A model generated the notes under the pieces. The model was not told the origin of the DNA. It saw nothing but the letters and a program-made list of their open reading frames with translations, and made no database searches. From Mucisphaera calidilacus (GTDB lineage: Bacteria > Planctomycetota > Phycisphaerae > Phycisphaerales > Phycisphaeraceae), in contig NZ_CP036280.1 in NCBI RefSeq assembly GCF_007748075.1, positions 150,001-182,000 on the forward strand: a stretch of 32,000 nucleotides of DNA, given 5' to 3'. Positions 1,254 to 17,136 of this stretch are shown one piece after another; the first letter of the stretch is position 1, and each line of letters starts with the position of its first letter. Made by a program: the position numbers and the translations under genes.

Positions 1254-1266
1254 GACCCGGAGCAGG

Positions 1267-2673: not shown

Positions 2674-3941
2674 CCAGGATCCTCATCGAGCAAAGCGGCT
2701 ACGGGCTTGGCAACGCCGGCGACGTCGCCATGCTCCTCTCACTGACCCAACGCATCCGCCGCAGCCGACCCGATATCCAACTCTCCGTCCTCACCGACAA
2801 CCCCGAACGACTCACACGCATCATCCCCAACACCACCCCCGTCGACCCGCAGCACAAAGGATTCCTCACCCAGGACTGGTGCCTCCTCGGCGCTCTCCAA
2901 CGAGTCCTGCCCGACGCGTGGAAGCCGCACCTGCTCCGGCTCGAACGAAAAACCTGCTCCTACGCACCACGCCGGGCCGCGGCATGTGTCGACGCAAGAC
3001 CCAAGAAACGCCCCCTCAACCCCACCGCCCGGCAGACCATCGACTGGCTCGACAGCTTCGACGGACTCATCGTCAGCGGCGGCGGATTCCTCACCGACGT
3101 CTTCAAGCGACACGGACAACTCGTGCTCCTGCTCGCCGCCGTCATGCACCGCCTCGGTAAACCCGTCGCCATGCTCGGACAGGGCATCGGACCCGCAGAC
3201 GACCCCCAACTCCGTAGCGACCTCCAACACACCCTCCCACGCGTCGATGTCCTCGGCCTGCGTGAGGGCGCTCACGGCCCCCGACTCCTCAACGAACTCC
3301 GCGTCCCTCAACACGCCGTCACCGTTACGGGCGACGAGGCCCTACCACTCGTCCGCGACAGCATCGACCCCAACGCCACCAGCCGCGGCGCCATCGGCAT
3401 CAACATCCGGGCCGCCAGCTACGCAGGACTCCACGAGTCACCCGTCCCGCAGCACGTCGCCGACGCAGCACAACAACTCGGCCGCGACCTCCAGCCCCTG
3501 CCGATCTCCTGGAACCACGACGACAACGACATCACGCCCCTGAAGCACCTCCTCCCACAGCACCTCTGCGACGAGATCCGAGAACCCCTGTCGCCCACGC
3601 AGATCGTCCGCCTCGCCGGCCGCTGCGACCTCACCGTCACCGGCAGCTACCACGCCGCACTCTTCTCGCTCGCGCAGGGCATACCCGTCATCGGCATCGC
3701 CGCCAATGCCTACTACCAGTACAAGTTCCAGGGACTCGCCGAACGCTTCGACCCCCGCAACGTCACCATCATCAACCCCAACGAAATACGCTCCGCCGAC
3801 GACATGCTCGCCCTCTGCCGCAGAGCACTCGACATCGACGACGACCGGCGTGCCGACCTGCGACAACGAGCAACCCTGCAGGCACAAGCCGTCTGCGACA
3901 CCGGCGAGAAAGCACTCGCCGCCTACCCCAAACCAGCATGA
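2670..3941 (+). CDS. Polysaccharide pyruvyl transferase family protein (WcaK/CsaB-like)
   Basis: In-frame ATG 2670 overlaps the flippase stop (ATGA). Conserved blocks are MTRILIEQSGYGLGNAGDVAML, LIVSGGGFLTD and TGSYHAALFSLAQGIPVIGI, as in PF04230. The upstream part of track ORF 1314..3941 is an out-of-frame artefact. Confidence 0.7.
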   Translation: MTRILIEQSGYGLGNAGDVAMLLSLTQRIRRSRPDIQLSVLTDNPERLTRIIPNTTPVDPQHKGFLTQDWCLLGALQRVLPDAWKPHLLRLERKTCSYAPRRAAACVDARPKKRPLNPTARQTIDWLDSFDGLIVSGGGFLTDVFKRHGQLVLLLAAVMHRLGKPVAMLGQGIGPADDPQLRSDLQHTLPRVDVLGLREGAHGPRLLNELRVPQHAVTVTGDEALPLVRDSIDPNATSRGAIGINIRAASYAGLHESPVPQHVADAAQQLGRDLQPLPISWNHDDNDITPLKHLLPQHLCDEIREPLSPTQIVRLAGRCDLTVTGSYHAALFSLAQGIPVIGIAANAYYQYKFQGLAERFDPRNVTIINPNEIRSADDMLALCRRALDIDDDRRADLRQRATLQAQAVCDTGEKALAAYPKPA

Positions 3942-4843
3942 ACATCACCGTCCTCCTGCCCGTGTACAACGCCCAACGCTACCTCGACGCAGCGGTCAGC
4001 AGCATCCGCGCGCAGACCCACCAGAGCTTCAACCTCATCGCACTCGACGACGGCTCCACCGACCACTCCCTCGACATCCTCAAACAACACGCCCGTGAAG
4101 ACGACCGCGTCACCGTCATTACACGCGAGAACCGCGGACTCATCGCAACTCTCAACGAGATGGTCGACCACGCCGACACCGAGTTCCTCGCACGCATGGA
4201 CGCCGACGACATCGCCACACCCGACCGCTTCGAGCAGCAACTCAACACCCTCCGCAACGACAACGGCCTCGTTGCACTCGGAACCGACATCCGCATTATC
4301 GACCCGCACGATCGAATCCTCACCCACTTCAAACTCCCACGCGACCACGACGCCATCGACAACGCCAACCTCCAAGGCGGCGGACTCAACATCTGCCACC
4401 CCGTCGTCATGATGCGCACCGACGCCGTCCGGCAGGTCGGCGGATACCACAACGACTACCCCCATGCCGAGGACACCGACATCTTCCTCCGACTCGCCGA
4501 GGCCGGGAAACTCGCCAACCTCGAACACGTCGGCCTCCACTACCGCGTCCACCCCCAGAGCGTCGGCTACACCCACCGCAAGCAACAACTCCAGTCCGCA
4601 CGCAAGGCCGCCATCGACGCCTGCACACGACGCAACATCCAGCCGCACCCCTCACTCACGAACCAGAACACACCCGACGAACAACCCGCCTCACCCGCCG
4701 ACATCTACCGGCGATGGGGGTGGTGGGCACTACGCGACCAGCACCTCAAAACCGCACGACACTACGCCCTCAAGGCCACACGCCACGACCCGCTCTCCCG
4801 CGAATCCTGGCGACTCCTCGCCTGCGCCCTCCGAGGACACTGA
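3938..4843 (+). CDS. Glycosyltransferase family 2
   Basis: MNITVLLPVYNAQRYLDAAVSSIRAQTHQSFNLIALDDGSTDHS followed by an RMDADD motif, the classic GT-A/GT2 N-terminus. The start overlaps the upstream stop (ATGA). Confidence 0.85.
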   Translation: MNITVLLPVYNAQRYLDAAVSSIRAQTHQSFNLIALDDGSTDHSLDILKQHAREDDRVTVITRENRGLIATLNEMVDHADTEFLARMDADDIATPDRFEQQLNTLRNDNGLVALGTDIRIIDPHDRILTHFKLPRDHDAIDNANLQGGGLNICHPVVMMRTDAVRQVGGYHNDYPHAEDTDIFLRLAEAGKLANLEHVGLHYRVHPQSVGYTHRKQQLQSARKAAIDACTRRNIQPHPSLTNQNTPDEQPASPADIYRRWGWWALRDQHLKTARHYALKATRHDPLSRESWRLLACALRGH

Positions 4844-4847
4844 CACC

Positions 4848-5924
4848 GTGAAGCCCCTACGCATCACCTTCCTCCTCCCCCACGCCGGACTCTCAGGCGG
4901 CATCCGCGTCGTCGCCATCTACGCCCAGCACCTCCAACAACGCGGGCATAGCGTCACCATCGTCTCCACGCCCCTGCCCACACCAACGCTCAAGCAACGC
5001 CTCGCCGCCGCCTGCCGCGGCCACTGGCTCCCCCGCAAAACACCCCACGGCCCCTCCCACCTCGATAACCTCGACCTCGACTGGCGCATCCTCGACACCC
5101 TCCGCCCCATCACCAACAAAGACGTCCCCGACGCCGACGTCGTCGTCGCCACCTGGTGGGAAACCGCCGATTGGATGATGAACCTCCACCCCGACAAGGG
5201 CACACCCGTCTACTTCTGCCAGGGATTCAAGGAAACCGACAGCCCCGGACTCGAAGCCACCTACCACCTGCCAATCCCCAAAATCACCGTCTCCCAGTGG
5301 GTCGCCGACAACCTCCGAAGCATCAACAACGATCACCCCATCACCATCATCCCCAACGCCGTCGATACCCAACGCTTCGCCCGCAACACCAGCACCCCAC
5401 GAAACCCCCTGCAACTCGGCATGGTCTACGCGCACGTCAGCATCAAGGGCTGCGACATCGCCCTCGACGCCTGCGAACGCGTCCGCCGGTCCGGACTGCC
5501 CGTCACGCTCACCACCTTCGGCAACGATCGCATCGATCCCGACACCATCCAACCCTGGCAAACACACACCACCCAGCCGCCGCAGCAGGACATCCCATCC
5601 CTCTACGCCGCCTCACACGCCTGGCTTTTCCCCTCCCGCGCCGAGGGCTTCGGCCTCCCCATACTCGAGGCCATGGCATGCAGAACCCCCGTCATCGGCA
5701 CACCCGCCGGGGCCGCGCCCGAACTCATCGGCCAAGGCGGCGGGATCCTCGTCCCCCACGAAGACCCCCAGGCTATGGCCGACGCCATCCTCAGAATCTG
5801 CAACATGCCCGACCACGAATGGCAGGCCATGGCCGACGCCGCCTACCAGACCGCCACCAGCTACACCTGGGACGACGCCACCGACCGATTCGAGCAGGCC
5901 CTCGCCACGGCCGCCCGCTCCTGA
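4848..5924 (+). CDS. Glycosyltransferase family 4 (GT-B, group 1)
   Basis: GTG 4848 lies 4 nt after the GT2 stop. The N-terminus VKPLRITFLLPHAGLSGGIRVVAIYAQHLQQRGHSVTIV and the C-terminal FPSRAEGFGLPILEAMACRTPVIGT (E-x7-E block) fit GT4. The upstream part of track ORF 4464..5924 overlaps GT2 out of frame. Confidence 0.85.
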   Translation: MKPLRITFLLPHAGLSGGIRVVAIYAQHLQQRGHSVTIVSTPLPTPTLKQRLAAACRGHWLPRKTPHGPSHLDNLDLDWRILDTLRPITNKDVPDADVVVATWWETADWMMNLHPDKGTPVYFCQGFKETDSPGLEATYHLPIPKITVSQWVADNLRSINNDHPITIIPNAVDTQRFARNTSTPRNPLQLGMVYAHVSIKGCDIALDACERVRRSGLPVTLTTFGNDRIDPDTIQPWQTHTTQPPQQDIPSLYAASHAWLFPSRAEGFGLPILEAMACRTPVIGTPAGAAPELIGQGGGILVPHEDPQAMADAILRICNMPDHEWQAMADAAYQTATSYTWDDATDRFEQALATAARS

Positions 5925-5929
5925 CCCCC

Positions 5930-5958
5930 TTGCATCGCCACGCAAACCCCGCTAAACT
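5930..5958 (+). promoter_or_regulatory. Candidate sigma70-type promoter for rpmI-rplT
   Basis: TTGCAT (5930-5935), a 17-nt spacer, then TAAACT (5953-5958), about 33 nt before the rpmI ATG. It overlaps a 7-bp inverted repeat, GCCACGC 5937-5943 / GCGTGGC 5959-5965. Confidence 0.3.
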
Positions 5959-5990
5959 GCGTGGCTCGCTACACAAGCAAGGGAACCGGT

Positions 5991-6266
5991 ATGCCCAAGC
6001 AGAAGACACACAAAGGCCTGCTCAAACGCGTCCGCGTCACCGCACGCGGCAAAGTGAAGTTCCGCAAGGTCGGCACCAGCCACCTCAACTCCGGACTCAC
6101 AGGCCAGAAGATGCGCGACCTCCGACAGCCCGCCTACGCCAAGAAAGGCGACGTCAAGAAGCTCTCACGCATGCTCATGACACGCATCCGGTCCACCGAG
6201 TACATCGCACGGCTCGACGCCGAACGCGAAAACGCCGAAACCGACAAGAACGGTCAGAGCAACTAA
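5991..6266 (+). CDS. rpmI: 50S ribosomal protein L35
   Basis: MPKQKTHKGLLKRVRVTARGKVKFRKVGTSHL is the canonical L35 N-terminus. It carries about 25 extra C-terminal residues (RIRSTEYIARLDAERENAETDKNGQSN). Confidence 0.9.
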   Translation: MPKQKTHKGLLKRVRVTARGKVKFRKVGTSHLNSGLTGQKMRDLRQPAYAKKGDVKKLSRMLMTRIRSTEYIARLDAERENAETDKNGQSN

Positions 6267-6313
6267 ATCACTGATATCGCGGCACTTGCCGCCTTTTCAC
6301 GACGGAGCTGAAC

Positions 6314-6691
6314 ATGCCACGCGCTGCCAAGGGTGCCGCCCGCCGACAGTCCAAAGTCCGCTGGTTCAAGAAAGCCAAGGGCAACCGCGGCGCACGCCGC
6401 ACGCAGTGGGGCCGCATCAAGGAGACCGTCTACCGCGCAGGCGTCTACGCCTACGAGCACCGGCGTCTGGTCAAACGCGACTACCGCAAACTCTGGATCC
6501 TCCGCGTCTCCGCGGCCTGCAAGATGCGTGGCATCAACTACTCACGCTTCATCCACGGCCTCAAACTCGCCAACATCATCATCAACCGCAAGATGCTCAG
6601 CGAGATCGCCATCGCCGACCCCCAGGGATTCGACCTCATCGTCGAACAGGCCAAGGCAGCAATCGAAGCCGACGCCAAACAGGCCGCCTGA
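6314..6691 (+). CDS. rplT: 50S ribosomal protein L20
   Basis: MPRAAKGAARRQSKVRWFKKAKGNRGARR...YAYEHRRLVKRDYRKLWILRVSAACKMRGINYSRFIHGLK is canonical L20. ACGGAG lies upstream of the ATG. Confidence 0.95.
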   Translation: MPRAAKGAARRQSKVRWFKKAKGNRGARRTQWGRIKETVYRAGVYAYEHRRLVKRDYRKLWILRVSAACKMRGINYSRFIHGLKLANIIINRKMLSEIAIADPQGFDLIVEQAKAAIEADAKQAA

Positions 6692-6789
6692 CCCCAACGG
6701 TTCCCGACGCCTCGAACAACCGCTTTCCGGGAACCCAACCGAATCGGTCGATAGTGCTCTGTCGACACGTCTGTTAGGAGGACGATCCC

Positions 6790-7512
6790 ATGAACAACAT
6801 CGACGCCCTCGAACGCGGATTCCACGCCGATACCTGGCGCATGTTCCGCATCATCTCCGAATTCGTCGACGGCTTCGAGGTCATGTCCGAGGTCGGACCC
6901 GCCGTCACCGTCTTCGGGTCCGCACGTACCCCCGAATCCGACCCCATGTACACCCGCGCCGTCGAGATCGGGCACAAAATCTGCGACCAGAAACTCGCCG
7001 TCATCACCGGAGGCGGGCCGGGCATCATGGAAGCCGCCAACCGCGGCGCCCACGAATCAGGCGGCGTCTCCGTCGGACTCAACATCGCACTCCCCCTCGA
7101 ACAGGCACCCAACCCCTACCAGACCCACGAGCTCAACTTCCGCTACTTCTTCGTCCGCAAAGTCATGTTCGTCAAGTACGCCTGCGGCATCGTCCTCTTC
7201 CCGGGCGGCTTCGGAACCATGGACGAGTTCTTCGAAACCCTCACCCTCGTTCAGACCGAAAAAATCCGACGCATCCCCATCGTCTGCTTCGGCACCGACT
7301 TCTGGTCCGGACTCATCGACTGGATGAAGCAGACCATGCTCGAACGATTCGAGACCATCAGCCCCGAAGACCTCGACCTCTTCCACCTCACCGACGACGT
7401 CGACGACGCCGTCCGACACGTCATGTCCAGCTACGACCGCGACGAGTGGATCGAGAAACACAAGGCCGGACTCCCCACCGACCTCACCACCGACCACCGA
7501 CGATTCCAGTAA
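6790..7512 (+). CDS. LOG family protein (TIGR00730-type, cytokinin riboside 5'-monophosphate phosphoribohydrolase-like)
   Basis: Signatures VFGSARTP, ITGGGPGIMEAANRGA and FPGGFGTMDEFFE (PGGxGTxxE). AGGAGGA lies 7 nt upstream of the ATG. Confidence 0.85.
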   Translation: MNNIDALERGFHADTWRMFRIISEFVDGFEVMSEVGPAVTVFGSARTPESDPMYTRAVEIGHKICDQKLAVITGGGPGIMEAANRGAHESGGVSVGLNIALPLEQAPNPYQTHELNFRYFFVRKVMFVKYACGIVLFPGGFGTMDEFFETLTLVQTEKIRRIPIVCFGTDFWSGLIDWMKQTMLERFETISPEDLDLFHLTDDVDDAVRHVMSSYDRDEWIEKHKAGLPTDLTTDHRRFQ

Positions 7513-7532
7513 GCTCCCGCCGGAGGACCACC

Positions 7533-8324
7533 ATGAGCACCACCGGCGAAGAACTCATCTCAACCAACCGACGACACGACGTCATCCTCTTCGACGTCGA
7601 CGGCTGCCTCGTCGCCGAACACACCGAAATCCTCAACATCCCCGCGCTCGCCAGAGTCGCCGAGTACAACAGAATCGCCATCGAGCAACGCGACCGACCC
7701 GAGATCACCCTCTGCACCGGACGACCCCAGCCCTTCGCCGAGTGCATGACCCGACTCCTCGGCAATCTCGACCTGCCCATCATCTGCGAGAACGGCGTCT
7801 ACCTCTTCCACCCGCGCGAACACCGCTACGACATGGACCCCGCCATCACCGACGACCACATCACCGCCATCGAAGATGCCAAGCACTGGGTCCTCCACAC
7901 CTTCGCCAAGGACGGACTCACCATCCAGCCCGGCAAAGAAGCCTCCTTCTCCCCCTACCACGCCCACCCGCCCGCACTCGACCCCATGATCCCACGCATC
8001 CGCGAGGAAGCCGAGAAACGCGGCTGGCCCATCCGCGTCTCGCGATCCTGGAACTACATCAACTGCGACCTCCAGCACATCTCCAAACGCACCGGCATCG
8101 CACGCTTCTTCGACGCCACCGGACTCCGACACGACCGCGCCGCAGGCGTAGGCGACACCCTGGGCGACACCGCCATCGCCGAGGCCGTCGACTGGTTCGC
8201 CTGCCCCAACAACGCCGACCCCAAACTCAAAGAACACGCCCACTTTGTCGCCCGACAGGACGAGATCCTCGGATCCCTTGAAATCCTCGAAGAACTCGAG
8301 CAACGCGAACCGCAAAGGCACTGA
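7533..8324 (+). CDS. HAD-superfamily hydrolase (subfamily IIB/Cof-like)
   Basis: In-frame ATG 7533 is preceded by GGAGGA (7522-7527). Motif I is DVILFDVDGCLV and the late motif is GVGDTLGDTAIAEAVDWFACPNNA. The upstream 400 codons of track ORF 6333..8324 are an artefact overlapping rplT and LOG. Confidence 0.7.
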   Translation: MSTTGEELISTNRRHDVILFDVDGCLVAEHTEILNIPALARVAEYNRIAIEQRDRPEITLCTGRPQPFAECMTRLLGNLDLPIICENGVYLFHPREHRYDMDPAITDDHITAIEDAKHWVLHTFAKDGLTIQPGKEASFSPYHAHPPALDPMIPRIREEAEKRGWPIRVSRSWNYINCDLQHISKRTGIARFFDATGLRHDRAAGVGDTLGDTAIAEAVDWFACPNNADPKLKEHAHFVARQDEILGSLEILEELEQREPQRH

Positions 8325-8326
8325 GC

Positions 8327-9352
8327 ATGACCAACCGATGGACCCCCGAGCAGGCACAGAACTGGGCCGATCAACACCCTTGGTACTGCGGCGCTAACTT
8401 CTACCCCTCCACCGCCATCAACCAACTTGAGATGTGGCGGGCCGAAACCTTCGACCCCGTGACCATCGACCGCGAACTCGGCTGGGCCGCCGAACTCGGC
8501 ATGAACCTCATGCGCGTCTACCTCCACGACCTGCTCCACCTCCACGACGCCGAGGGCCTCAAGCAACGCGTCGACGCCTACCTCGCCATCGCCCACAAGC
8601 ATGGCATCGACACCATGCTCACCCTCTTCGACGACTGCCATCGCAAAGACTTCGCCTGGGGCACCCAGCCCGAACCCGTCCCCTTCAAGCACAACTCCGG
8701 CTGGGCCCAGTCCCCCGGCCAGGCCGTCCTCGCCGACAACACCCAGTGGACCCGCCTCCAGGACTACGTCCTCGACGTCCTCGATCAATTCAAGGACGAC
8801 CCCCGCGTCGCCCTCTGGGACCTCTACAACGAACCGGGCAACAGCCCCTTCTTCCAGGATCAGGACAAGGCCTACTCCCTCGAACCCACCCTCGACCTGC
8901 TCCAGCGAACCTTCGCCTGGGCACGCTCGATCGAACTCACCCAGCCGATCACCGCCGGCGTCTTCACCTTCTCCGACGAGTTCAAAGCCCTCAACGACTG
9001 CCAGCTCGACAACTCCGACATCATCTCCTTCCACAGCTACGACCCGCCCGAACAGCTCCTCACCATGATCGAACGCCTCCAGGCCCACGGCCGGCCGCTC
9101 GTCTGCTCCGAGTACATGGCTCGGACCCGAGGCAGCACCTTCCAGCACTGCCTGCCCCTCCTCCGCCGGCACAACGTCGCCGCCATCAACTGGGGCCTGG
9201 TCGCCGGCAAGTCAGGCACCATCTACCCCTGGGGCTGGGACGCTTCCAAGGGCGAACCCTACCTCTGCTTCCACGACGTCTTCCGCCCCGACGGCTCCAT
9301 GCTCTACCCCGAAGAACGCCAGGCCATCACCAGCGTGACCCAGCCGGGATGA
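8327..9352 (+). CDS. Glycoside hydrolase, GH5-like TIM barrel (cellulase/xylanase-like)
   Basis: ALWDLYNEPGN (acid/base NEP motif) and LVCSEYMA (candidate nucleophile Glu). No signal peptide is visible. The start lies 2 nt after the HAD stop. Confidence 0.65.
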   Translation: MTNRWTPEQAQNWADQHPWYCGANFYPSTAINQLEMWRAETFDPVTIDRELGWAAELGMNLMRVYLHDLLHLHDAEGLKQRVDAYLAIAHKHGIDTMLTLFDDCHRKDFAWGTQPEPVPFKHNSGWAQSPGQAVLADNTQWTRLQDYVLDVLDQFKDDPRVALWDLYNEPGNSPFFQDQDKAYSLEPTLDLLQRTFAWARSIELTQPITAGVFTFSDEFKALNDCQLDNSDIISFHSYDPPEQLLTMIERLQAHGRPLVCSEYMARTRGSTFQHCLPLLRRHNVAAINWGLVAGKSGTIYPWGWDASKGEPYLCFHDVFRPDGSMLYPEERQAITSVTQPG

Positions 9353-9366
9353 TGAATCTCACTCTC

Positions 9367-9410
9367 GGGTGGCTGTGGACAGACCCGAGCCCGCGAGGGG
9401 CTGCCCACAG
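9367..9410. repeat. Left REP-like palindrome
   Basis: CTGTGGACAG (9373-9382) pairs 9/10 with CTGCCCACAG (9401-9410). The 12-mer GGCTGCCCACAG (9399-9410) recurs at 9993-10004. Confidence 0.6.
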
Positions 9411-9440
9411 AAGTATGGGACATTACGATATCATGCTTTT

Positions 9441-9977
9441 ATGAAATCATCATTCATTGAAGCACCTCACTGCATCCATATCCTGACATTCAGTTGTTAT
9501 CACGGGTACCAGTTTCTCAACGCCGAGCGAACACGTCATTGGCTTGCCAGAGCCACCGACTCTGCATGCCTTGAGTTCAATACCCGACTCATTGCTTACG
9601 TCTTTATGCCTGAGCATGTTCACATGATGATTCAGCCCAGACTGGCCTCGATGGTGACGGACCGTTTCCTCCGTCGTGTGAAAGCACCCGTTGCTCGGAA
9701 AGCAATTCAACACCTTGTCCAATCGAATCCCGCATGGCTCGCTCGTATTTCCCGTAAACGCGGCCATCGAACCGAGCGGGTCTTCTGGCAGTCAGGAGGA
9801 GGTTACGATCACTGCACCTATTCTGATACCGAAGCCAATCGCCTGATCGACTATATTCATACCAATCCTGTGAGGAAAGGGCTTGTAGTTCGGCCGCAGG
9901 ATTGGATCTGGTCGAGCGCAGCATGGTACGTGTCAGGGAAGCCCGGTCCTTGTGTCGTCCACGGCATCAGATCTTGA
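9441..9977 (+). CDS. REP-associated tyrosine transposase (RAYT), IS200/IS605 Y1 HUH family
   Basis: The HUH motif is in FMPEHVHMMIQP and the catalytic-Tyr helix is in LIDYIHTNPVRKGLVVRPQDWIWSS. ATG 9441 is preferred, because the GTG 9369 extension would run through the REP palindrome. Confidence 0.8.
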   Translation: MKSSFIEAPHCIHILTFSCYHGYQFLNAERTRHWLARATDSACLEFNTRLIAYVFMPEHVHMMIQPRLASMVTDRFLRRVKAPVARKAIQHLVQSNPAWLARISRKRGHRTERVFWQSGGGYDHCTYSDTEANRLIDYIHTNPVRKGLVVRPQDWIWSSAAWYVSGKPGPCVVHGIRS

Positions 9978-9992
9978 GACAGTCGTTATTTC

Positions 9993-10071
9993 GGCTGCCC
10001 ACAGGATCTTCGATCATCTGGCACCCACAACTCTGTGGGCAAGACCCTTTGGGCCTTGTCCACAGCCACCC
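9993..10071. repeat. Right REP-like palindrome cluster
   Basis: TGCCCACAG (9996-10004) pairs perfectly with CTGTGGGCA (10033-10041). An inner CCCACA (10024-10029) / TGTGGG (10034-10039) pair is also present. The terminal TTGTCCACAGCCACCC lies at 10056-10071. Confidence 0.6.
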
Positions 10072-10102
10072 GACCGGATCCGTCTCGAGATCCCCATCGC
10101 CC

Positions 10103-11542
10103 CTAGTACAGCGTCTCAATCTCCGCGCCCGGATAGAAGAAGGCGAGGATCTCCGCGTGGCCGTAACCGCGTGTCGCCATGTCCTGCGCCCCCCACTGCG
10201 AGAGCCCGACGCCGTGTCCGTAACCCCGCCCTTCGACGATCACGACGCGTTCGCCACGCACCTCGACCTGCACAAAACTGCTCTTGAGTCGTTCGTTGCG
10301 CTCCAGAGGCGTCAGCGTGGGCCGCGTGTAGTTCGCCGCCCAGCGGAACTGCTCGGAGTGCAGCACGAAGTCGTTGCCATCGAGGTCGATCAGCGTGAAT
10401 TCCACCGGCCGGCCCGCCTGGGTCTTCTTGGTGACCACGATCCGGATCAGCCCGTTCATCCGCGCGACCGCGTGCCGGTTGGCGACGCCCCACGCCTTGA
10501 CGCGGGCCACGAACGCGACCTTGCTCCGGTTGATCGGTCCCCACTTGGCGTGGGGGCTGGTTGCGCCGACGTCGTAGTGATTGCGGCTGCGTAGCGGCGC
10601 GATTTTCGCCACGTCGCCGAAGGCATCCCACGCGCTCTGGGCCGCGCCACCCGAGTCGGCCGAGTAGAACGCCGGCACGACCCTGCGGTCATAGACCAAG
10701 ACCTGGCCCTCGGTGTCGCGGACCGCGTCCAATGCCCGCTGGTGCGAGGTCGCGCCGGTGTAGACCTGGCTGGCCGTGGTCGATTCGAGGTCGAAGCCGC
10801 GGGCCTGTGTGGTTGAGGCCTCGAAGATCGCGTAGGTGCGGGCAGCGACCGCCTGCGTGCGGAAAGCCGCCGGCTCCCAATTGCCATAGAGCTCGCCGAT
10901 GAGCACGCCCGGCAGGTAGGTCTCGATCGGGACGTAATTCATGACGTCGAGGTCGGGGCTGTCGGTCTCGCTGCGGTAGCCGTGCTCGACGACCAGCTGG
11001 CCGGGGTACTTCTTGCCGTTGAGGCCGATCGGCTCGCCATCGACCGAGCGGAGGCCGACGCGCGGGCCGACGATGCCGTAGGTCTCGCCCTGCCCGTCGG
11101 TCACGCTCAGGCCGGTGATCGTCCGCCGGATGGTCACCGGAGCGGTCATGGTCGTGGGTGCGTCCAGCCGGTCTCCGATCCCGACCATGCCGACGTTGTA
11201 GCTGCTGTCGCCGCCGAACCGAAGGTTCTGGGCGTTCTTCATGATCCGCACGCGGAGGATCGGCTCGCCGGTGACGGACGCGGCGGGCGGCCCGTGGCGG
11301 AGGGTGGGAACGGCGAGGGCGCGGTTTGCGGAGACCCGCTCTTCCTTGGTGCGGAGGACCTGCGGCTGGAGTTCCTCGGGGTCGAGGGGCTCCCACTGCG
11401 ACTCGCAGGCCGTGACCGAGAGCACGAGCAGCAGGCCGATGAGGCTCAGGATGCCGAGGGTGAGGTTCGGGCGTTCCCGCCAGTCAAACCTTCGCCAGTC
11501 GTATTGTTGCCGGTTCAAGCGGATTCGGTGCATGAGATTCAT
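10103..11542 (-). CDS. SpoIID/LytB domain protein (cell-wall lytic transglycosylase / amidase enhancer family)
   Basis: N-terminal membrane anchor LTLGILSLIGLLLVLSVTAC. Conserved blocks are YLPGVLIGELYGNWEPAAFRTQAVAARTYA, VPAFYSADSGG and GRGYGHGVGLSQWGA. GAGAGGAG lies 6 nt upstream of the ATG. Confidence 0.85.
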   Translation of the reverse strand: MNLMHRIRLNRQQYDWRRFDWRERPNLTLGILSLIGLLLVLSVTACESQWEPLDPEELQPQVLRTKEERVSANRALAVPTLRHGPPAASVTGEPILRVRIMKNAQNLRFGGDSSYNVGMVGIGDRLDAPTTMTAPVTIRRTITGLSVTDGQGETYGIVGPRVGLRSVDGEPIGLNGKKYPGQLVVEHGYRSETDSPDLDVMNYVPIETYLPGVLIGELYGNWEPAAFRTQAVAARTYAIFEASTTQARGFDLESTTASQVYTGATSHQRALDAVRDTEGQVLVYDRRVVPAFYSADSGGAAQSAWDAFGDVAKIAPLRSRNHYDVGATSPHAKWGPINRSKVAFVARVKAWGVANRHAVARMNGLIRIVVTKKTQAGRPVEFTLIDLDGNDFVLHSEQFRWAANYTRPTLTPLERNERLKSSFVQVEVRGERVVIVEGRGYGHGVGLSQWGAQDMATRGYGHAEILAFFYPGAEIETLY

Positions 11543-11664
11543 CGCGGCTCCTCTCGTCCGTGAGATGCCGAGGCTGGGGCGTCTTCCTTGTGCCGAGTCA
11601 CATTATCGGCCCTAACCGCCCAGATTGCCAACTCCGGGTCCGGGTGATCGGGTAGGATCGGCAC

Positions 11665-13461
11665 ATGGCGATCGCGACGATGGACGCACGGAAGCGTTGG
11701 CGATTCCGGACGGAATCGCTCAATGGGGCTGAACAAGGCATGGATGCCCTGGTCCGGGACACGGGTCTGGACCCGATGATCCTCCGCCTTCTCGCCCGCA
11801 GGGGCCAGCACACCCCCGAGCAGATCGATCGGTTCCTCAATCCCCGGCTGACCGACCTGCACGACCCGGACCTGTTGCCCGGGGCGGTGGATGCGGCCCG
11901 CCGGCTCAGCAGCGCGATCCGGGACCGACGGCCGATCATCATCTATGGCGACTACGACGTCGATGGCGTCACGGCCAGCGCGATCCTCTGGCACACCCTC
12001 AAGGCTTTCGACGCCGACGTGCGGACCTACATCCCCCACCGGATCGACGAGGGGTATGGCATCAACACCGAGGCTCTGCTGGGGCTGATCGAGGGCTGCG
12101 ACCGGCCGCCGGTCATTATCTCGGTCGACTGCGGGATCACCGCGGTTGAGCCGGCGCAGGCGGCGGTCGAGGCGGGTGCGGAGCTAATCATCACGGACCA
12201 CCACGGGTTCGAGGGCGACGCGTTGCCTCAGGCCCACGTGCTTGTCCACCCTGGGCTGGAGCGGGAGGAGGGTGGGGCCTATCCCTGGCGTGATCTCTGC
12301 GGCGCGGGTGTGGCTTTCAAGGTCGCGTGGGCGTTGGCTCGGGAGCACACGGGCCAGCCGAGGCTGGATACGGAGCTGCGTGCCTTGTTGCTTGACCTTG
12401 TGAGTCTGGCGGCGCTGGGGACCGTGGCGGATGTCGTGCCGCTACTCGACGAGAACCGGGTGATCGCGTCGATCGGTCTGCGTCAGATCAAGCGGACGCG
12501 GTTTGTGGGTCTCAACGCGATGATCAAGGCCGCGAAGCTCGAGAGCGAACGCGTGAGTGCTCATCACGTCGGTTTTGTGCTCGGGCCGAGGCTCAACGCC
12601 TGCGGGCGCATGGGTCATGCGGGCGAGGCGTTGCGGTTGCTGACCGATGCGACCGAGGAGGAGGCGGAGGCCATCGCGGCGGAGCTGACGCGCGTGAATA
12701 ACGAGCGGCGCAGCACCGAGCGACGGATCGCCGACGCGGCCAAACAGCTAGTCGAGGAGGAGGGGTGGGACGCGCCGGACCGGCGGGCGCTCGTGGTGGT
12801 GGGCGAGGACTGGCACCCGGGCGTGCTCGGGATCGTGGCGAGTCGACTGGTTGACGCTTTCTCGCGTCCCTCGATCGTGCTGAGTCTCAACGGGGAGGGG
12901 ATCGCGAGCGGATCGGCGCGGAGTGTGGATGGCGTCTCGATTCTTGACGGGCTGACGTCGTGTTCAGATTGCTTCACGCGTTTTGGCGGCCACGCGATGG
13001 CGGCGGGCATGACCCTGCCGGGCGACCGTGTCGACGAGCTGCGTGAGCGTCTGGTGGCGTTCGTGAACGAGCGGCTGAGCCCCGATGAGCTGCGACCCGT
13101 GCTGAAGCTCGAGGAGAAGCTGGACCTGGGATCGTGCACGGAGGCGGTCTGCAAGCAGATCGAGCGTCTAGCGCCGTTTGGCCGGGGCAACCCCGCGCCA
13201 TGCTGGACGTTCGAGGGGTTGACGATCGAGGACGAGCCGCGGGTCATGGGGCGTGGCGGGGCGCACCTGGCGCTGCGTGTCGCGGACCGCGAGGCGGACC
13301 GACGGATCCGGATGGTGGGCTGGCGGCTGGGTTCGCTGGCCGAGCAACTGGCCACGGGTGTGCGTGTCGACGTGGCGGGTGTGCCGAGGCATTCGGTCTG
13401 GCAGGGGATGAGCCGGGTTGAGATCGAGATCAGCGACCTGCGGGTGTGCGAAGCGGTCTGA
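11665..13461 (+). CDS. recJ: Single-stranded-DNA-specific exonuclease RecJ
   Basis: DHH-family motifs IIIYGDYDVDGVTASAIL, ISVDCG and LIITDHHG, plus DHHA1 FGGHAMAAG. The start could instead be ATG 11680. Confidence 0.9.
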   Translation: MAIATMDARKRWRFRTESLNGAEQGMDALVRDTGLDPMILRLLARRGQHTPEQIDRFLNPRLTDLHDPDLLPGAVDAARRLSSAIRDRRPIIIYGDYDVDGVTASAILWHTLKAFDADVRTYIPHRIDEGYGINTEALLGLIEGCDRPPVIISVDCGITAVEPAQAAVEAGAELIITDHHGFEGDALPQAHVLVHPGLEREEGGAYPWRDLCGAGVAFKVAWALAREHTGQPRLDTELRALLLDLVSLAALGTVADVVPLLDENRVIASIGLRQIKRTRFVGLNAMIKAAKLESERVSAHHVGFVLGPRLNACGRMGHAGEALRLLTDATEEEAEAIAAELTRVNNERRSTERRIADAAKQLVEEEGWDAPDRRALVVVGEDWHPGVLGIVASRLVDAFSRPSIVLSLNGEGIASGSARSVDGVSILDGLTSCSDCFTRFGGHAMAAGMTLPGDRVDELRERLVAFVNERLSPDELRPVLKLEEKLDLGSCTEAVCKQIERLAPFGRGNPAPCWTFEGLTIEDEPRVMGRGGAHLALRVADREADRRIRMVGWRLGSLAEQLATGVRVDVAGVPRHSVWQGMSRVEIEISDLRVCEAV

Positions 13462-13470
13462 CGCGATTCA

Positions 13471-13503
13471 GAAAAAAGACAAGGCTCCGTTGGGAGCCTT
13501 GCC
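13471..13503 (-). terminator. Rho-independent terminator, best for the minus-strand PEP-CTERM gene; sits between convergent genes
   Basis: CAAGGCTCC (13480-13488), loop GTTG, GGAGCCTTG (13493-13501). On the minus strand the hairpin is followed by CTTTTTTC. Confidence 0.5.
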
Positions 13504-13530
13504 GTGTGTATGAGATTGATTCGGGTTTGA

Positions 13531-14220
13531 TCAGCGTCGTGCGCGACGTGCGGCCATCAGTCCGAGGAGGACGAGTCCGCCGGCCGCTGCGGCGGGTGAG
13601 GGTGCGGGGATGGGCGGGGGCGCGACCTGGTGCTGGGTGACGACACGCATGGTGTCGATGCGGGCGTTGCCGGGGACGTACCAGTTGAAGTCGGCGGTCG
13701 TGCCGGCGACGGTGGTGACGTCGTTGATCCCGCCGCCGCCTGCGCCGGCGCCGCGGTCACGCGCGTTGGTGGGGTAGAGGACATCGACGCCAAGCGTCGC
13801 GGGGACGTAGGTGGCCTCGTCCCAGAGCGAGGTGATGGCCTGCTCGAAGGTGTTGAGGGCGTTGTCGGCGCCGAAGTAGCCCAGGATGGTCGCTTCGAAA
13901 TCGAAGGACATGTCGAGGGTGCCGCCGGTGGCGTGGTCGGGGTCGTAGTGGACGTAGTGGACGTCGACGAGGGTGCCGCCCGCTGCGCTAACGGTCTCGA
14001 TGTAGTCGGAACCGATGAGGTCGGTGATGCTGCTGAGCGAGAGCCCGCTGAACTCCTCGAAGACCAGGATGCCGTTGTCGGGCGTCGTGGTCCCGGTGGC
14101 GTCGCGGTTGTCGCGGAGGTCCGCCGTGCCGGATGCGGGCAGGGTTGTGACAGAGCCGGCCATGGCGTGCGAAGCGGTCAGGGTCAGAGCACCGAGTGCG
14201 GCGAGCGTGGAAATCTTCAT
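13531..14220 (-). CDS. Secreted PEP-CTERM-anchored protein (cargo 1)
   Basis: Signal peptide MKISTLAALGALTLTASHAMA. C-terminal sorting signal PIPAPSPAAAAGGLVLLGLMAARRARR (PEP-like motif, hydrophobic helix, Arg cluster). Confidence 0.7.
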   Translation of the reverse strand: MKISTLAALGALTLTASHAMAGSVTTLPASGTADLRDNRDATGTTTPDNGILVFEEFSGLSLSSITDLIGSDYIETVSAAGGTLVDVHYVHYDPDHATGGTLDMSFDFEATILGYFGADNALNTFEQAITSLWDEATYVPATLGVDVLYPTNARDRGAGAGGGGINDVTTVAGTTADFNWYVPGNARIDTMRVVTQHQVAPPPIPAPSPAAAAGGLVLLGLMAARRARR

Positions 14221-14533
14221 GGGAAAAGCCTTTCTACTCCAAGGTGTGCAGAAGTCATTACCGTCACCACCACGATGATTGGTATTGAGTTGAGGACGCA
14301 GCCTCGCGGGAAGTATGTGATTCAGGGGAGAAACGGCCAGCGATCTTGTGGGGATATGGGGTCGGAAGCTTGCCGGGCGTCTGCGTGATCGGCGCAGGTC
14401 TCCCGGTTTGACAGGTTGTGGCCTTGATGCGTGGGTGAATCACGGGGTGGCGGTGTTCGCGCGTCGCCGTACTGCTGTGCGCAGGCCGCGTCTGCGGCCC
14501 GGTCCGTCAGGCGTCACCCGGGTTGTGTATCGA

Positions 14534-16183
14534 TCAGCCGGCGAGTCGGTGCTGTGTGGATGGCTTGTCGTCGAGTGGTGCGACGTAGCGTCCGGGGCTG
14601 ATGGTGTCGTTGGGGTCGAGGGTCTGCTTGATGCTGTTGACCACGTCCCAGAAGGGGTCGCCTTCGAGGCGGAGCTTGGCGTAGCCGGTGGGCCCGCTGC
14701 GGTAGGGGATGAAGCCGGACTCCATGAGGATCTTCATCAGTTCCTCGTAGCAATCCTGGGCGCGCTGGCACTCTTCGGGGATGCGTTTGTCGAAGGAGAT
14801 GTTGGTGATGCAGATCATGGCGCGTTCGGTGATCATGGTGAAGGTGACCAGCGAGTCGAAGCCGTGTTTCTGGTAGACGGGTTCCATCAGGTTCATGAGC
14901 TGTCGAGCGTCTTCGCCACGGTTCGGCACGACGGGCGACAGCCATGCGATGCCGGCGTGGACGTCGAGCGGGTCGGCGGGCAGCTCGGGCTCGGGGTCGC
15001 GGACGCGCCAGGCGGCGCCGCGGATGTGTTCGTTGGAGGGTTCACCCTTGAGCAGGCCGTAGACGGGCTTGAAGATGCCGAGCATCTCGCCGAGCCAGCC
15101 TCCCGCGCCGACCATGGCCAGACCCTTCTGGATGCGTTCGGCGAGGGCGAGTCGCTGGTCGTTGATGAAGCGGACGTTGTAGGGCTTGAGGACTCGGGCG
15201 AGTTCCTTGCGGACGGCCCTGACGGTGCCTTTTGTGCCGGAGACGGAGCCGCAGCCGTTCCACATGCCGATCATGCCCTGCTTGCGGATGTCGGCGCGGA
15301 CGTCTTCGGGCAGGGGGGTGATGCCCTGCGTCTGGTCGAACGGGTAGCGCATGCGTGCGGACATGATGCGCAGGTCGTTGCCGATGTGGATCGCGCTCTG
15401 GAGGAGTCCCTGCATGCGGAGGGGTGCGAGTCGGTTGACGATGTCTTCGAGGTCGTGGTCGTTGTGTCCCATGAAGACGAAGGAGCAGAAGTCCTCGGGT
15501 TTAGGCATGAGCCAGATATTGATGCGTGTGACGATGCCCATGTTGGACTGGACGAAGAGCCCGTCGAGCATGGGCCCGACGCCATAGGGGTAGACCTTGT
15601 CGCTTTTGGCGTTGGGGTAGTGGCCGTAGCCGGTGTGGATGACGCGGCCGTCGGGGAGGACGACTTCCATGCCGCAGCAGGAGAGGAAGTGGTCGCCATA
15701 GCGTGTGTGCCCGAACCCGTGGTCAAGGGTGTTGCCGACGAGGCTGGCGTCGACGCCTGCGCCGGTGGCATCGACCCAGAGGTCGGGTGCGTGTTCGGCG
15801 AGGTGCTGGCTGAGTTGGCCCTGGGAGACGCCTGGCTGGATGACGGCGTAGGCGAGTTCGCGGTTGAGTTCGAGGACCTGGTTCATGCGTGAGAGGTCGA
15901 GGATGACCTGTCCGCGTTCGACCGGTCCTGCGTCGCCGTAGCCCCAGTTCTTGCCGCGTGAGATGGCGTGGACGGCGGTGTTGGTGTCGTTGGCGGCCTT
16001 GACGATCCCGGCGACCTCGTCGGTGGTGACGGGGTAGAGGATGGCGTCGGGGACGCGGGGGTTGCCGAAGGTCGATCGGCCGTAGCGCTGGCGTGTGGTC
16101 TCGGTGGCGTCGATGCGGTCGTCGGGGAGGATCCGGGCGACACGTCCGAGAAACTTCTGGGTATCGGCGATCTGCGCGCACAT
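14534..16183 (-). CDS. FAD-linked oxidase, VAO/PCMH (vanillyl-alcohol oxidase / p-cresol methylhydroxylase-like) family
   Basis: Family-like blocks are AISRGKNWGYGDAGP, MNQVLELNRELAYAVIQPGVSQGQL, GNTLDHGFGHTRYGDHFLSCCGMEVVLPDGRVIHTG and GLFVQSNMGIVTRINIWLMPKPE. ATG 16183 is preferred (AGGAGA 8 nt upstream) over ATG 16234. Confidence 0.8.
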   Translation of the reverse strand: MCAQIADTQKFLGRVARILPDDRIDATETTRQRYGRSTFGNPRVPDAILYPVTTDEVAGIVKAANDTNTAVHAISRGKNWGYGDAGPVERGQVILDLSRMNQVLELNRELAYAVIQPGVSQGQLSQHLAEHAPDLWVDATGAGVDASLVGNTLDHGFGHTRYGDHFLSCCGMEVVLPDGRVIHTGYGHYPNAKSDKVYPYGVGPMLDGLFVQSNMGIVTRINIWLMPKPEDFCSFVFMGHNDHDLEDIVNRLAPLRMQGLLQSAIHIGNDLRIMSARMRYPFDQTQGITPLPEDVRADIRKQGMIGMWNGCGSVSGTKGTVRAVRKELARVLKPYNVRFINDQRLALAERIQKGLAMVGAGGWLGEMLGIFKPVYGLLKGEPSNEHIRGAAWRVRDPEPELPADPLDVHAGIAWLSPVVPNRGEDARQLMNLMEPVYQKHGFDSLVTFTMITERAMICITNISFDKRIPEECQRAQDCYEELMKILMESGFIPYRSGPTGYAKLRLEGDPFWDVVNSIKQTLDPNDTISPGRYVAPLDDKPSTQHRLAG

Positions 16184-16363
16184 AGGGAGGGTCTCCTGTT
16201 CTGTGGAGGGGTATCGACCGTTCGGCGGCGGCATGTGACTGTGAGGGGGGTAACGCGCGCGTGTTAAGAATGGCGGTTTAGCTTGTCTGGGTTTGAGTCG
16301 TGCGTGGCGGGTGCCGATGCAGATGGTGAGCCGGGAGTCCTCTTATCTTGGGAGTGCGTTCGG

Positions 16364-17116
16364 ATGTCAGAGCAGGAATCGTCCACGGGAGCGGAGTCGT
16401 TTGAGCCGTCGGCGAACGGGTCCGGGCTGACGTTTGACGTCGCTCGTGATCTCGCTGAGGTCGAGGAGTGCTGGTCGCTGGTTTATCGGTCGTACATCAA
16501 GGCGGGTCTGATCGAGCCGAACGCGGAGCGGGTGCACACGGTGCCGCAGACGATCTCGCCCGGGACGCTGGTGGCGTATGGCCGAATCCATGACGTGATC
16601 GTGAGCACGATGACGGTCTATCTCGACGGCCCTTTGGGTCTGCCTTTGGACATGGTTTACAAGGACGAGTTGGATCAGCTGCGTGGCGAGGGTCGGAAGC
16701 TGGTGGAGCTGGGGTTGTTCGCGGACCGCCGTCAGCACCTGTACCGGTCGATCGACGCGATCCTGGAGTTGATGCGTTATTGCACGCATTACTCGGTGAA
16801 CGAGGGGCATCTGGATGCGGTGGTGGGTGTGAACCCGCGGCACGTGCCGTTCTATGTGAAGCTGCTGGGGTTTGAGGCGATCGGTGAGACGAAGACCTAC
16901 GAGACGGTGAACGACTTCCCGGTGGTGCTGTTGCACCTGGACTGGCCGAAGAAGACTGCGATGAAGCGTCTGCCAAAGGGTCTGGCGCATCTTCACGAGC
17001 CGGCGATCAGCCCGGACTACTACGCGACGCGTTGTGTGCTGACGCCTGAGCGGATCGCGGGGACGCCTGTTGAGAAGGCGGTGGAGCGCAAGTCGGTGGC
17101 GTTGTCGGCGATGTGA
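16364..17116 (+). CDS. FeeM-like long-chain N-acyl amino acid synthase (GNAT-related; resembles the PEP-CTERM/exosortase-associated acyltransferase branch)
   Basis: EECWSLVYRSYIKAGLIEPN..., STMTVYLDGPLGLPLDMVYKDELDQLRGEGRKLVELGLFA and VVGVNPRHVPFYVKLLGFEAIGETKTYETVNDFPVVLLHLD follow the FeeM/NasY family pattern as I recall it. ATG 16364 has GGGAG upstream. Confidence 0.6.
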   Translation: MSEQESSTGAESFEPSANGSGLTFDVARDLAEVEECWSLVYRSYIKAGLIEPNAERVHTVPQTISPGTLVAYGRIHDVIVSTMTVYLDGPLGLPLDMVYKDELDQLRGEGRKLVELGLFADRRQHLYRSIDAILELMRYCTHYSVNEGHLDAVVGVNPRHVPFYVKLLGFEAIGETKTYETVNDFPVVLLHLDWPKKTAMKRLPKGLAHLHEPAISPDYYATRCVLTPERIAGTPVEKAVERKSVALSAM

Positions 17117-17136
17117 GGGTGATTCTGAGTGGGTGT

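What the first reader, a model, noticed from the sequence alone, without database searches (positions are those of the whole stretch)
9353..11664. Strand composition and synonymous codon choice flip here with origin-type polarity, about 9-10 kb from dnaN
Seen directly, from approximate hand counts per 60-nt line. Left of ~9.35 kb the + strand is strongly C over G (661-720: G 5 / C 31; 9001-9060: G 8 / C 28). Right of ~10.8 kb it is G over C (15961-16020: 25/15; 24001-24060: 30/13; 31201-31260: 27/14). The bias follows the DNA strand, not the coding strand. On the left, + strand genes (EPS genes, rpmI, rplT, LOG, HAD, GH5) use C/A-ending codons (ACC, GCC, CTC, CGC), while the - strand dnaN fragment uses G-ending codons (ACG, CTG, GTG). 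On the right, + strand genes (recJ, FeeM-like, mtnP, tuf, rpmG, MarC) use G/T-ending codons (ACG, GCG, CTG, CGT). The - strand genes there (VAO-like, ilvB, sigma, PEP-CTERM genes, ggt) use C-ending codons. Two ribosomal-protein loci in one window therefore use opposite synonymous codons. Inside the SpoIID gene (-), the 5' third (about 11000-11542) is C-ending and the last ~100 codons (about 10103-10400) are G-ending. This places the switch at roughly 10.3-10.8 kb. A change from C-rich to G-rich along a strand is the signature of a replication origin in standard skew analysis, and dnaN is nearby and co-oriented with a leftward fork. The alternative is one breakpoint of a large inversion. If it is an origin, rpmI-rplT and the EPS genes are transcribed head-on to replication.
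Basis: partly seen in the sequence, partly recalled or inferred. Interest (0 to 1): 0.72.

Follow-up and report, generated by a model that had tools for sequence, protein, structure and literature searches.

The report
Replication-origin-type strand switch in Mucisphaera
The two DNA strands of this Mucisphaera calidilacus chromosome segment swap their very strong G-versus-C bias, and with it their preferred synonymous codons, across a 3-kb zone, which is best read as the place where replication forks diverge, although no classical origin sequence is visible there and close relatives with the same gene order lack the switch.

Summary
The + strand GC skew is -0.30 up to 9345 and +0.24 from 12255 on. 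A 2.9-kb zone between them has a net skew of zero. Third-codon-position skew is about -0.6 on the left and +0.6 on the right. It follows the DNA strand, not the coding strand.

The window comes from Mucisphaera calidilacus Pan265. Gene order across the switch (HAD-SpoIID-recJ-VAO-FeeM) is intact in the relatives that cover those genes, so this is neither an inversion breakpoint nor a misassembly. Four relatives replicate the whole block in one direction. Only the closest relative also has an origin-type flip, about 3 kb away from this one. Forks therefore appear to diverge here in a derived arrangement, meaning the origin moved into a conserved block.

No canonical oriC is visible. The only DnaA-box-like cluster (TGYCCACA x5) consists of REP repeats flanking a RAYT transposase gene that the relatives lack. 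dnaA is not in the window. dnaN sits in the same neighbourhood in relatives L001 and L003/L004, which have no flip.

I could not run the whole-replicon test. My confidence that this is an origin is about 0.7. It is a real but fairly ordinary kind of feature, with some unusual details.

The parts
1..9345 (.). Left arm. The + strand is C- and A-rich (GC skew -0.30), which fits leftward-moving forks.
   Evidence: GC3 skew of the + strand genes is -0.41 to -0.71.
3..176 (-). Beginning (N-terminal coding end) of dnaN, the only left-arm gene co-oriented with a leftward fork. It is transcribed divergently from the polysaccharide-synthesis cluster, so dnaA is not directly upstream.
   Evidence: Pfam DNA_pol3_beta, E 4.6e-09. 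Coding-strand GC3 skew is +0.31.
303..8324 (+). Polysaccharide-synthesis genes (two pyruvyl transferases, a flippase, GT2, GT4), then rpmI, rplT, LOG and a HAD hydrolase. All would be head-on to a leftward fork.
   Evidence: Pfam. The order rpmI-rplT-LOG-HAD is the same in L001, L003 and L005. The polysaccharide-synthesis genes are only partly shared.
8327..9352 (+). GH5-like glycosidase gene with full left-arm skew (GC3 skew -0.57). It is absent at this position in the relatives.
   Evidence: Pfam Cellulase. tblastn found no match in L001. The gene tables of L003 and L005 lack it.
9346..12254 (.). Zone of zero net skew (-0.003) between the two arms. The fork-divergence point lies in it or at one of its edges.
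   Evidence: Two-change-point fit, support intervals 9301-9769 and 12036-12299.
9365..9410 (+). Left REP unit (GGGTGGCTGTGGACA...CTGCCCACAG). It holds two of the five DnaA-box-like TGYCCACA motifs.
   Evidence: Its invariant GTGGCTG core aligns with the REPs that flank homologous RAYT genes.
9441..9977 (+). REP-associated tyrosine transposase (RAYT) gene. Its GC3 is 0.54 against about 0.85 for the genome, so it is probably a recent arrival. The syntenic relatives lack it.
   Evidence: NCBIfam NF047646, 84.5 bits against a cut-off of 80. Pfam Y1_Tnp. A 100% match is named as RAYT in M. calidilacus.
9993..10073 (-). Right REP units, inverted relative to the left one. The outermost 17 nt form a perfect inverted repeat with 9365-9381. 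They hold three TGYCCACA motifs.
10103..11542 (-). SpoIID/LytB gene with weakened skew (+ strand GC3 skew +0.19).
11543..11664 (.). SpoIID-recJ divergent intergenic region (122 bp). It has no box cluster and no AT-rich stretch.
11665..13461 (+). recJ. GC3 skew is about -0.12 over the first 450 nt and about +0.24 over the rest, below the +0.55 plateau. The second change point lies inside it.
12255..32000 (.). Right arm. The + strand is G- and T-rich (GC skew +0.24), which fits rightward-moving forks. Its replication polarity is reversed relative to the orthologous genes that most relatives carry (recJ to ilvB).
   Evidence: Comparison with L001, L003 and L011.

Best explanation
Replication forks of the Mucisphaera calidilacus chromosome diverge from a point or short zone between about 9.35 and 12.25 kb of the window, so this is the origin region.

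The leading strand accumulates G and T. In this family that bias is unusually strong: the G-C excess is about 0.15-0.19 per base, against a typical value of about 0.025. It is strong enough that the synonymous codon a gene uses is set by the direction in which it is replicated, not by its own orientation.

The composition, the codon usage and the conserved gene order are shown directly. Fork divergence and origin function are inferred.

Most relatives replicate this same gene block in one direction, so the origin probably came to lie inside the conserved block in the lineage of M. calidilacus and its closest sampled relative. The weak skew of SpoIID and recJ is most simply explained by the divergence point having moved across these two genes recently, towards the 3' end of SpoIID. 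A broad or two-site initiation zone would fit equally well.

The DNA sequence that acts as the origin is not identified.
For: - **Polarity:** GC and AT skew flip together with origin polarity, and the flip is highly significant.
- **Strand-following bias:** GC3 skew follows the DNA strand in 25 or more genes.
- **Conserved gene order:** Across the flip the order and orientation (HAD-SpoIID-recJ-orf-VAO-FeeM, on to ilvB) match L001, L003/L004 and L005. The recJ-SpoIID and ilvB part also matches L011, Poriferisphaera corsica. This excludes an inversion breakpoint or a misassembly at the flip.
- **Full-strength skew:** Both arms have skew as strong as the relatives' plateaus. The flip is therefore not a decaying relic.
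- **Closest relative:** L002 (SpoIID 65% identical) also shows an origin-type flip in the same block. GC3 skew is -0.20 in orf241 and +0.50 in recJ.
- **Co-oriented genes:** tuf, rpmG and two tRNA genes on the right, and dnaN on the left, are co-oriented with the inferred forks.
Against: - There is no cluster of DnaA boxes. The density of sites within two mismatches of the consensus is at background level around the flip.
- The only TGYCCACA cluster is the REP repeats of a RAYT gene.
- There is no sizeable non-coding or AT-rich region, apart from the start of the RAYT gene.
- No parS site and no dnaA gene are in the window.
- L001, L003/L004, L005 and P. corsica show no flip in the same block.
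- All left-arm genes except dnaN would be head-on to replication.
- The global skew minimum of the replicon was not checked.
Confidence: 0.7

Rival explanations
1. The flip is one end of a large chromosomal inversion, or an assembly join in the wrong orientation. The skew would then have been carried along with the inverted DNA.
For: Inversions do create origin-type flips at one end. Among relatives the block shows both replication polarities (L003 against L005), so rearrangements affecting this neighbourhood have happened.
Against: Every gene adjacency from ilvB to the polysaccharide flippase gene next to dnaN that the window and L001 share is preserved across the flip, in the same relative orientation as in relatives without a flip. 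dnaN itself sits at the end of the same block. The only differences are inserted genes. A relic flip would not keep full-strength skew while SpoIID diverged to about 55% identity.
Confidence: 0.03
2. The flip is a fossil. An origin worked here for a long time, but the active origin has since moved elsewhere and the skew has not yet decayed.
For: No origin sequence features are visible. The flip position differs by about 3 kb between M. calidilacus and L002 and is absent in other relatives, so origins do move in this group. SpoIID and recJ are visibly out of equilibrium.
Against: Both arms are at full strength right up to the zone, and there is no sign of general decay.
Confidence: 0.1
3. The RAYT/REP-bearing intergenic region (9353-10102) is itself the working origin. 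Its TGYCCACA motifs would be bound by DnaA and the AT-rich stretch at 9422-9481 would be the unwinding site.
For: - Five of the seven TGYCCACA sites in the window lie here, one of them a perfect TTGTCCACA.
- It is the only AT-rich, largely non-native DNA next to the sharp left edge of the zone.
- It is an insertion relative to relatives that lack the flip.
Against: - The motifs are part of REP units that share an invariant GTGGCTG core with the REPs flanking homologous RAYT genes in unrelated planctomycete contigs. The box-like look comes from a one-base variant of GGCTGGGGAC.
- The RAYT gene has foreign composition (GC3 0.54), so it arrived more recently than the skew pattern formed.
- L002 has a flip without any RAYT or TGYCCACA cluster.
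Confidence: 0.07
4. One arm was imported by homologous replacement from a relative in which the same genes are replicated in the opposite direction. The donor's synonymous-site skew would have come in without changing gene order.
For: Relatives with opposite polarity for the same genes exist (L003 against L005).
Against: At least 20 kb on the right and 9 kb on the left are uniformly skewed, with no second boundary in the window. Replacement on that scale between lineages this divergent is improbable. L002 shows a similar flip at a different position.
Confidence: 0.04

Closest known systems
Bacterial chromosomal origin located by the cumulative GC-skew minimum (standard skew analysis, Ori-Finder/DoriC practice)
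   Same: There is a C-to-G (and A-to-T) switch along one strand. The bias is concentrated at third codon positions and is independent of gene orientation. dnaN lies within 10 kb.
   Different: There is no DnaA-box cluster, no clear unwinding element and no adjacent dnaA. The switch is a 2.9-kb zone of zero net skew rather than a step. Its position is not conserved in relatives with the same gene order. The skew is several times stronger than the typical ~2.5% excess (PMC8941118).
RAYT/REP systems (REP-associated tyrosine transposase flanked by inverted REP sequences)
   Same: The gene at 9441-9977 passes the NCBIfam RAYT model. It is flanked by inverted repeat units whose GTGGCTG core matches the REPs around homologous RAYT genes.
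   Different: The REP arms here happen to resemble high-GC-type DnaA boxes, and the element sits exactly at the sharp edge of the skew switch. No other REP copies occur in the other 31 kb of the window.
Bipartite origins such as Helicobacter pylori oriC1/oriC2 (PMC3479198, seen)
   Same: Two separated initiation-related sites could bracket a short region. That is one way to explain a zone of zero net skew.
   Different: No DnaA-box clusters are found at either edge of the zone here, and no dnaA lies between them. The comparison is a model only.
Skew discontinuities caused by inversions within one chromosome arm
   Same: Both produce a local origin-type flip of strand composition.
   Different: An inversion needs a break in gene order at the flip, and none is present here.

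Membership tests
Bacterial chromosomal replication origin region | Local cumulative GC-skew minimum with C-rich to G-rich polarity | tested here: met
   The minimum is at 10544, and skew goes from -0.30 to +0.24.
Bacterial chromosomal replication origin region | AT skew flips together with GC skew (leading strand rich in G and T) | tested here: met
   AT skew is mostly +0.1 to +0.3 on the left (near zero at 1.5-3 kb) and mostly -0.1 to -0.35 on the right.
Bacterial chromosomal replication origin region | The minimum is the global one for the whole replicon | not testable with these tools
   The source genome, CP036280.1, could not be retrieved.
Bacterial chromosomal replication origin region | Cluster of DnaA boxes in a non-coding region | tested here: not met
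   Sites within two mismatches of the consensus are at background density. The only TGYCCACA cluster is RAYT-flanking REPs.
Bacterial chromosomal replication origin region | AT-rich DNA unwinding element next to the boxes | tested here: inconclusive
   The only AT-rich stretch nearby is 9422-9481 (33% GC), which overlaps the RAYT start codon and probably its promoter.
Bacterial chromosomal replication origin region | Adjacent to dnaA or dnaN | tested here: inconclusive
   dnaN starts about 9.2 kb to the left, and dnaA is absent from the window. L001 and L003 keep dnaN in the same place without a flip.
Bacterial chromosomal replication origin region | Position conserved relative to flanking genes in related genomes | tested here: not met
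   L001, L003/L004, L005 and L011 have no flip. L002 has one about 3 kb away.
Bacterial chromosomal replication origin region | Peak of marker frequency in growing cells, or DnaA binding | not testable with these tools
   This needs experimental data.
Inversion breakpoint | Gene order or orientation broken at the flip relative to genomes without it | tested here: not met
   The order is the same across the flip in L001, L003/L004 and L005, apart from inserted genes.
Inversion breakpoint | A reciprocal flip at the other end of the inverted segment | tested here: inconclusive
   There is none within the 32-kb window. Sequence beyond the window is not available.
RAYT/REP system | Single Y1 (HUH) transposase gene that matches the RAYT model above its cut-off | tested here: met
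   NF047646 scores 84.5 bits against a cut-off of 80. It scores only 25.6 against the IS200 model, whose cut-off is 55.
RAYT/REP system | Gene flanked by REP units in inverted orientation | tested here: met
   There is a perfect 17-nt inverted repeat at 9365-9381 and 10057-10073. The units align with the REPs of L008-L010.
RAYT/REP system | REP copies dispersed through the genome | tested here: inconclusive
   No further copies occur in the window outside the RAYT flanks. The rest of the genome was not available.

The most novel reading that the evidence does not exclude
The replication origin of this lineage is not tied to a fixed, DnaA-box-defined locus. It has moved step by step through a gene block whose order stayed intact, leaving a trail of partly re-equilibrated skew (SpoIID-recJ here, VAO-recJ in the closest relative). 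Alternatively, initiation occurs over a zone of about 3 kb. Because the skew is extreme, the movement or width of the fork-divergence point can be read at sub-kilobase resolution from sequence alone.
Probability: 0.15. Interest if true: 0.7.

Novelty: new member of a known kind. Interest (0 to 1): 0.4.

Why it matters
If confirmed, this gives the likely replication origin of a cultured member of the Phycisphaerae. I found no origin description for this class in the literature searched.

It also shows a family in which replication direction, not gene orientation or expression, sets synonymous codon choice to an unusual degree. Such strong skew makes small shifts of the fork-divergence point visible. 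Here the point differs between relatives that share the same gene order. This offers a way to study how bacterial origins relocate and how fast strand composition re-equilibrates.

In practical terms, the case warns that DnaA-box scans can be fooled by REP repeats.

Tried and rejected
- **Retrieving the source contig.** Exact-protein look-ups to extend beyond the window found nothing, even for the 100% identical database entry. The whole-replicon skew test therefore could not be run.
- **DnaA boxes.** I scanned for TTATCCACA, TTGTCCACA and TGATCCACA with up to two mismatches. There is no enrichment near the flip in the window or in L002.
- **The TGYCCACA cluster.** I first took it as a candidate DnaA-box cluster. 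I rejected this after homologous RAYT loci showed the same flanking repeat architecture.
- **REP folding.** Folding the REP units as single-stranded DNA gave only modest z-scores, and only the right-hand unit reached -3.1. I rely on the alignment rather than on structure.
- **Repeated motifs.** A search for any repeated 7-8-mer cluster near the flips found nothing convincing.
- **parS and dnaA.** The parS scan gave no hits. A DnaA protein motif search of all held DNA gave no hits.
- **Position in the record.** I tried to infer the window's place in the GenBank record from protein accession numbers. The numbers run in gene order, but the start of the series is unknown, so nothing follows.
- **Literature.** Searches found no published origin analysis for this organism or class.
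- **Wrong reading frame.** My first ORF for the HAD gene (7742-8281) was in the wrong frame. The correct gene is 7548-8324.
Full report
**Source.** The SpoIID protein encoded at 10103-11542 (-) is 100% identical to a protein of Mucisphaera calidilacus whose contig is 3,486,541 bp long. The RAYT, recJ, tuf and rplT products are also exact matches to that species. The species description gives the genome as CP036280.1, 3,486,541 bp, 63.9% G+C, with no plasmids (PMC8882080). The window has 63.6% G+C. The genome itself could not be fetched.

**The observation.** In 1-kb windows the + strand GC skew is -0.23 to -0.37 from 1 to 9.5 kb, apart from one dip to -0.18 at 6-7 kb. It is near zero from 9.5 to 12 kb and mostly +0.2 to +0.4 from there to the end, and AT skew flips the other way. 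The cumulative G-C minimum is at 10544. A single change point falls at 10547 and improves lnL by 572 units.

Two change points fit significantly better (delta lnL 28.7). The segments are 1-9345 at -0.297, 9346-12254 at -0.003 and 12255-32000 at +0.242. The first boundary lies at the GH5 stop codon and the RAYT element (support 9301-9769). The second lies inside recJ (support 12036-12299).

The bias sits at third codon positions and follows the DNA strand:
- GC3 skew on the + strand is -0.41 to -0.71 for left-arm genes.
- It is +0.22 to +0.71 for right-arm genes on either strand.
- First- and second-position skew stays mostly small, with a few exceptions.

Codon counts show the same thing. Leu CTC/CTG is 229/25 in left + genes, 7/79 in right + genes and 241/49 in right - genes. 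tuf is the exception at +0.03, presumably because of selection on its codons. Two details need adjusting: the switch is a zone rather than a point, and the 3' end of SpoIID is balanced rather than G-ending.

**Genes.** Pfam and NCBIfam confirm the following:
- the beginning of dnaN (3 to ~176, -)
- a polysaccharide-synthesis cluster
- rpmI, rplT, LOG, HAD (7548-8324) and GH5 (8327-9352)
- a RAYT transposase (9441-9977)
- SpoIID (-) and recJ (+)
- a VAO-type oxidase (-), FeeM (+), ilvB (-) and an ECF sigma factor (-)
- mtnP (+), tuf, rpmG, MarC and ggt (-)

ARAGORN finds tRNA-Thr and tRNA-Trp on the + strand.

**Not an inversion or misassembly.** Related contigs carry the same block. All are shown here with SpoIID on the + strand, which is reversed relative to the window. 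The block runs ilvB ... FeeM-VAO-orf-recJ-SpoIID-HAD-LOG-rplT-rpmI-polysaccharide genes-dnaN. The contigs are:
- L001, a Mucisphaera sp. MAG
- L003/L004, a Phycisphaeraceae MAG
- L005, a JGI metagenome contig, which ends before dnaN
- L002, which carries the FeeM-to-SpoIID part
- L011, Poriferisphaera corsica, which keeps ilvB ... recJ-SpoIID

Relative to these, the window differs near the flip only by insertions, namely GH5 plus the RAYT/REP unit between HAD and SpoIID. A break in adjacency, which an inversion endpoint or a wrong assembly join would need, is absent.

**Polarity in relatives.** On the SpoIID coding strand:

| Locus | Skew over the block | Flip? |
|---|---|---|
| L003/L004 | +0.2 to +0.4 over 20 kb, including dnaN | no |
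| L001 | about +0.14 over 14.5 kb, then about -0.05 in a low-GC island and beyond | none at SpoIID/recJ |
| P. corsica (L011) | +0.3 to +0.5 | no |
| L005 | uniformly about -0.19 (opposite polarity) | no |
| L002 (closest relative, SpoIID 65% identical) | -0.14, then about 0 at 4376-7851, then +0.23 | yes |

In L002 the GC3 skew is -0.20 in orf241 and +0.50 in recJ.

Most relatives replicate the block in the direction ilvB to dnaN, so I take that polarity to be ancestral. The left arm of the window keeps it. The right arm (recJ onward, at least 20 kb) is reversed. Gene order is intact and both arms are at full skew strength. The simplest explanation is that forks have diverged here for a long time in this lineage. 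This means an origin came to lie inside the conserved block.

**The zone of zero skew.** GC3 skew on the + strand runs as follows:
- GH5 -0.57
- RAYT -0.19
- SpoIID +0.19
- first 450 nt of recJ about -0.12
- rest of recJ about +0.24
- next gene +0.58

In other genomes SpoIID and recJ are fully skewed according to local polarity, so nothing intrinsic to these genes explains the weak values. In L002 SpoIID and the 5' half of recJ still carry the ancestral polarity. The simplest reading is therefore that the divergence point crossed these two genes recently in M. calidilacus and now sits at the sharp left edge (9.35-10.1 kb). A broad or two-site initiation zone would give the same picture. I cannot separate these readings, and the matching 3.5-kb zone in L002 is unexplained.

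**No recognisable oriC.** TTATCCACA-like sites are at background density around the flip. There is no parS, no dnaA and no repeated k-mer cluster. Non-coding DNA near the flip is limited to 88, 125, 122 and 69 bp stretches.

Five of the seven TGYCCACA matches in the window cluster at 9374-10064 and look like high-GC DnaA boxes. They belong to inverted repeat units flanking the RAYT gene, including a perfect 17-nt inverted repeat. Homologous RAYT genes in three unrelated planctomycete contigs are flanked in the same way by units sharing an invariant GTGGCTG core. The box-like look arises from GGCTGTGGAC in place of the family's GGCTGGGGAC.

The RAYT gene has foreign composition (GC3 0.54). It is absent from the relatives, and it is not needed for the flip in L002. 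I therefore treat the cluster as REP repeats, not an origin, and keep the alternative at low probability.

**Strength of the skew.** The G-C excess is about 0.15-0.19 per base. SkewDB describes a typical value of about 0.025 and uses 0.046 as its worked example (PMC8941118). Relatives are equally extreme. This is a family property, not something special to this locus.

**Verdict.** This is a real origin-type strand switch. It is most likely the chromosomal origin region of M. calidilacus (confidence about 0.7), and it sits in a derived position within a conserved gene block. The kind of feature is well known. The unusual aspects are its strength, the 3-kb neutral zone, the lack of conservation among relatives with the same gene order, and the absence of visible origin motifs. 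The whole-replicon skew and marker-frequency tests remain to be done.

Noticed in passing
window 25147-26352: tuf escapes the replication-strand codon bias. Its GC3 skew is +0.03, while neighbouring genes are at +0.4 to +0.7. This is presumably translational selection on a highly expressed gene.
   Followed up: partly
L011 (P. corsica CP036425.1 749301-770590), L003, L005: Extreme GC skew (0.2-0.5 in 1-2 kb windows) is shared across Phycisphaeraceae relatives with very different G+C content (45-67%). It is therefore a family trait rather than a peculiarity of this genome.
   Followed up: partly
window 26716-27569: A lower-GC stretch (56-59%) directly after tRNA-Trp encodes a protein with a LEM-3-like GIY-YIG nuclease domain. 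secE-nusG would usually follow here, so this may be an insertion at the tRNA gene.
   Followed up: no
window 29565-29624: This is the most AT-rich 60 nt of the window (25% GC), lying upstream of the unannotated ORF 29679-30719.
   Followed up: no
L008 2660-2920 and 3640-4240: A homologous RAYT gene is preceded by a long (GGTGAGTG)n-like simple repeat. It is followed by seven tandem ~91-bp units, each containing a REP.
   Followed up: no
L001 14000-19500: In the Mucisphaera sp. MAG the polysaccharide-synthesis cluster between rpmI and dnaN is a 41-46% GC island in a roughly 62% GC genome. Skew drops to about zero there. The cluster was probably replaced by foreign DNA.
   Followed up: no
window 9441-9977: The RAYT gene has a RefSeq protein accession (WP_145444353) but no GenBank QDU accession. 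The numbering of its neighbours skips it, so the original annotation of CP036280 apparently missed it.
   Followed up: partly
window 7742-8281: An out-of-frame ORF inside the HAD gene (true frame 7548-8324) still gave a 53% identical tblastn match to L001. This is probably a side effect of conserved DNA with strongly biased codons. I did not check it as a possible overlapping gene.
   Followed up: no
L002 10315-10553: A 239-bp gap lies between the convergent 3' ends of SpoIID and an unrelated ORF. It carries four TGTGCGC-type repeats and A/T tracts. It occupies the position where M. calidilacus has the RAYT/REP insertion. Its function is unknown.
   Followed up: no
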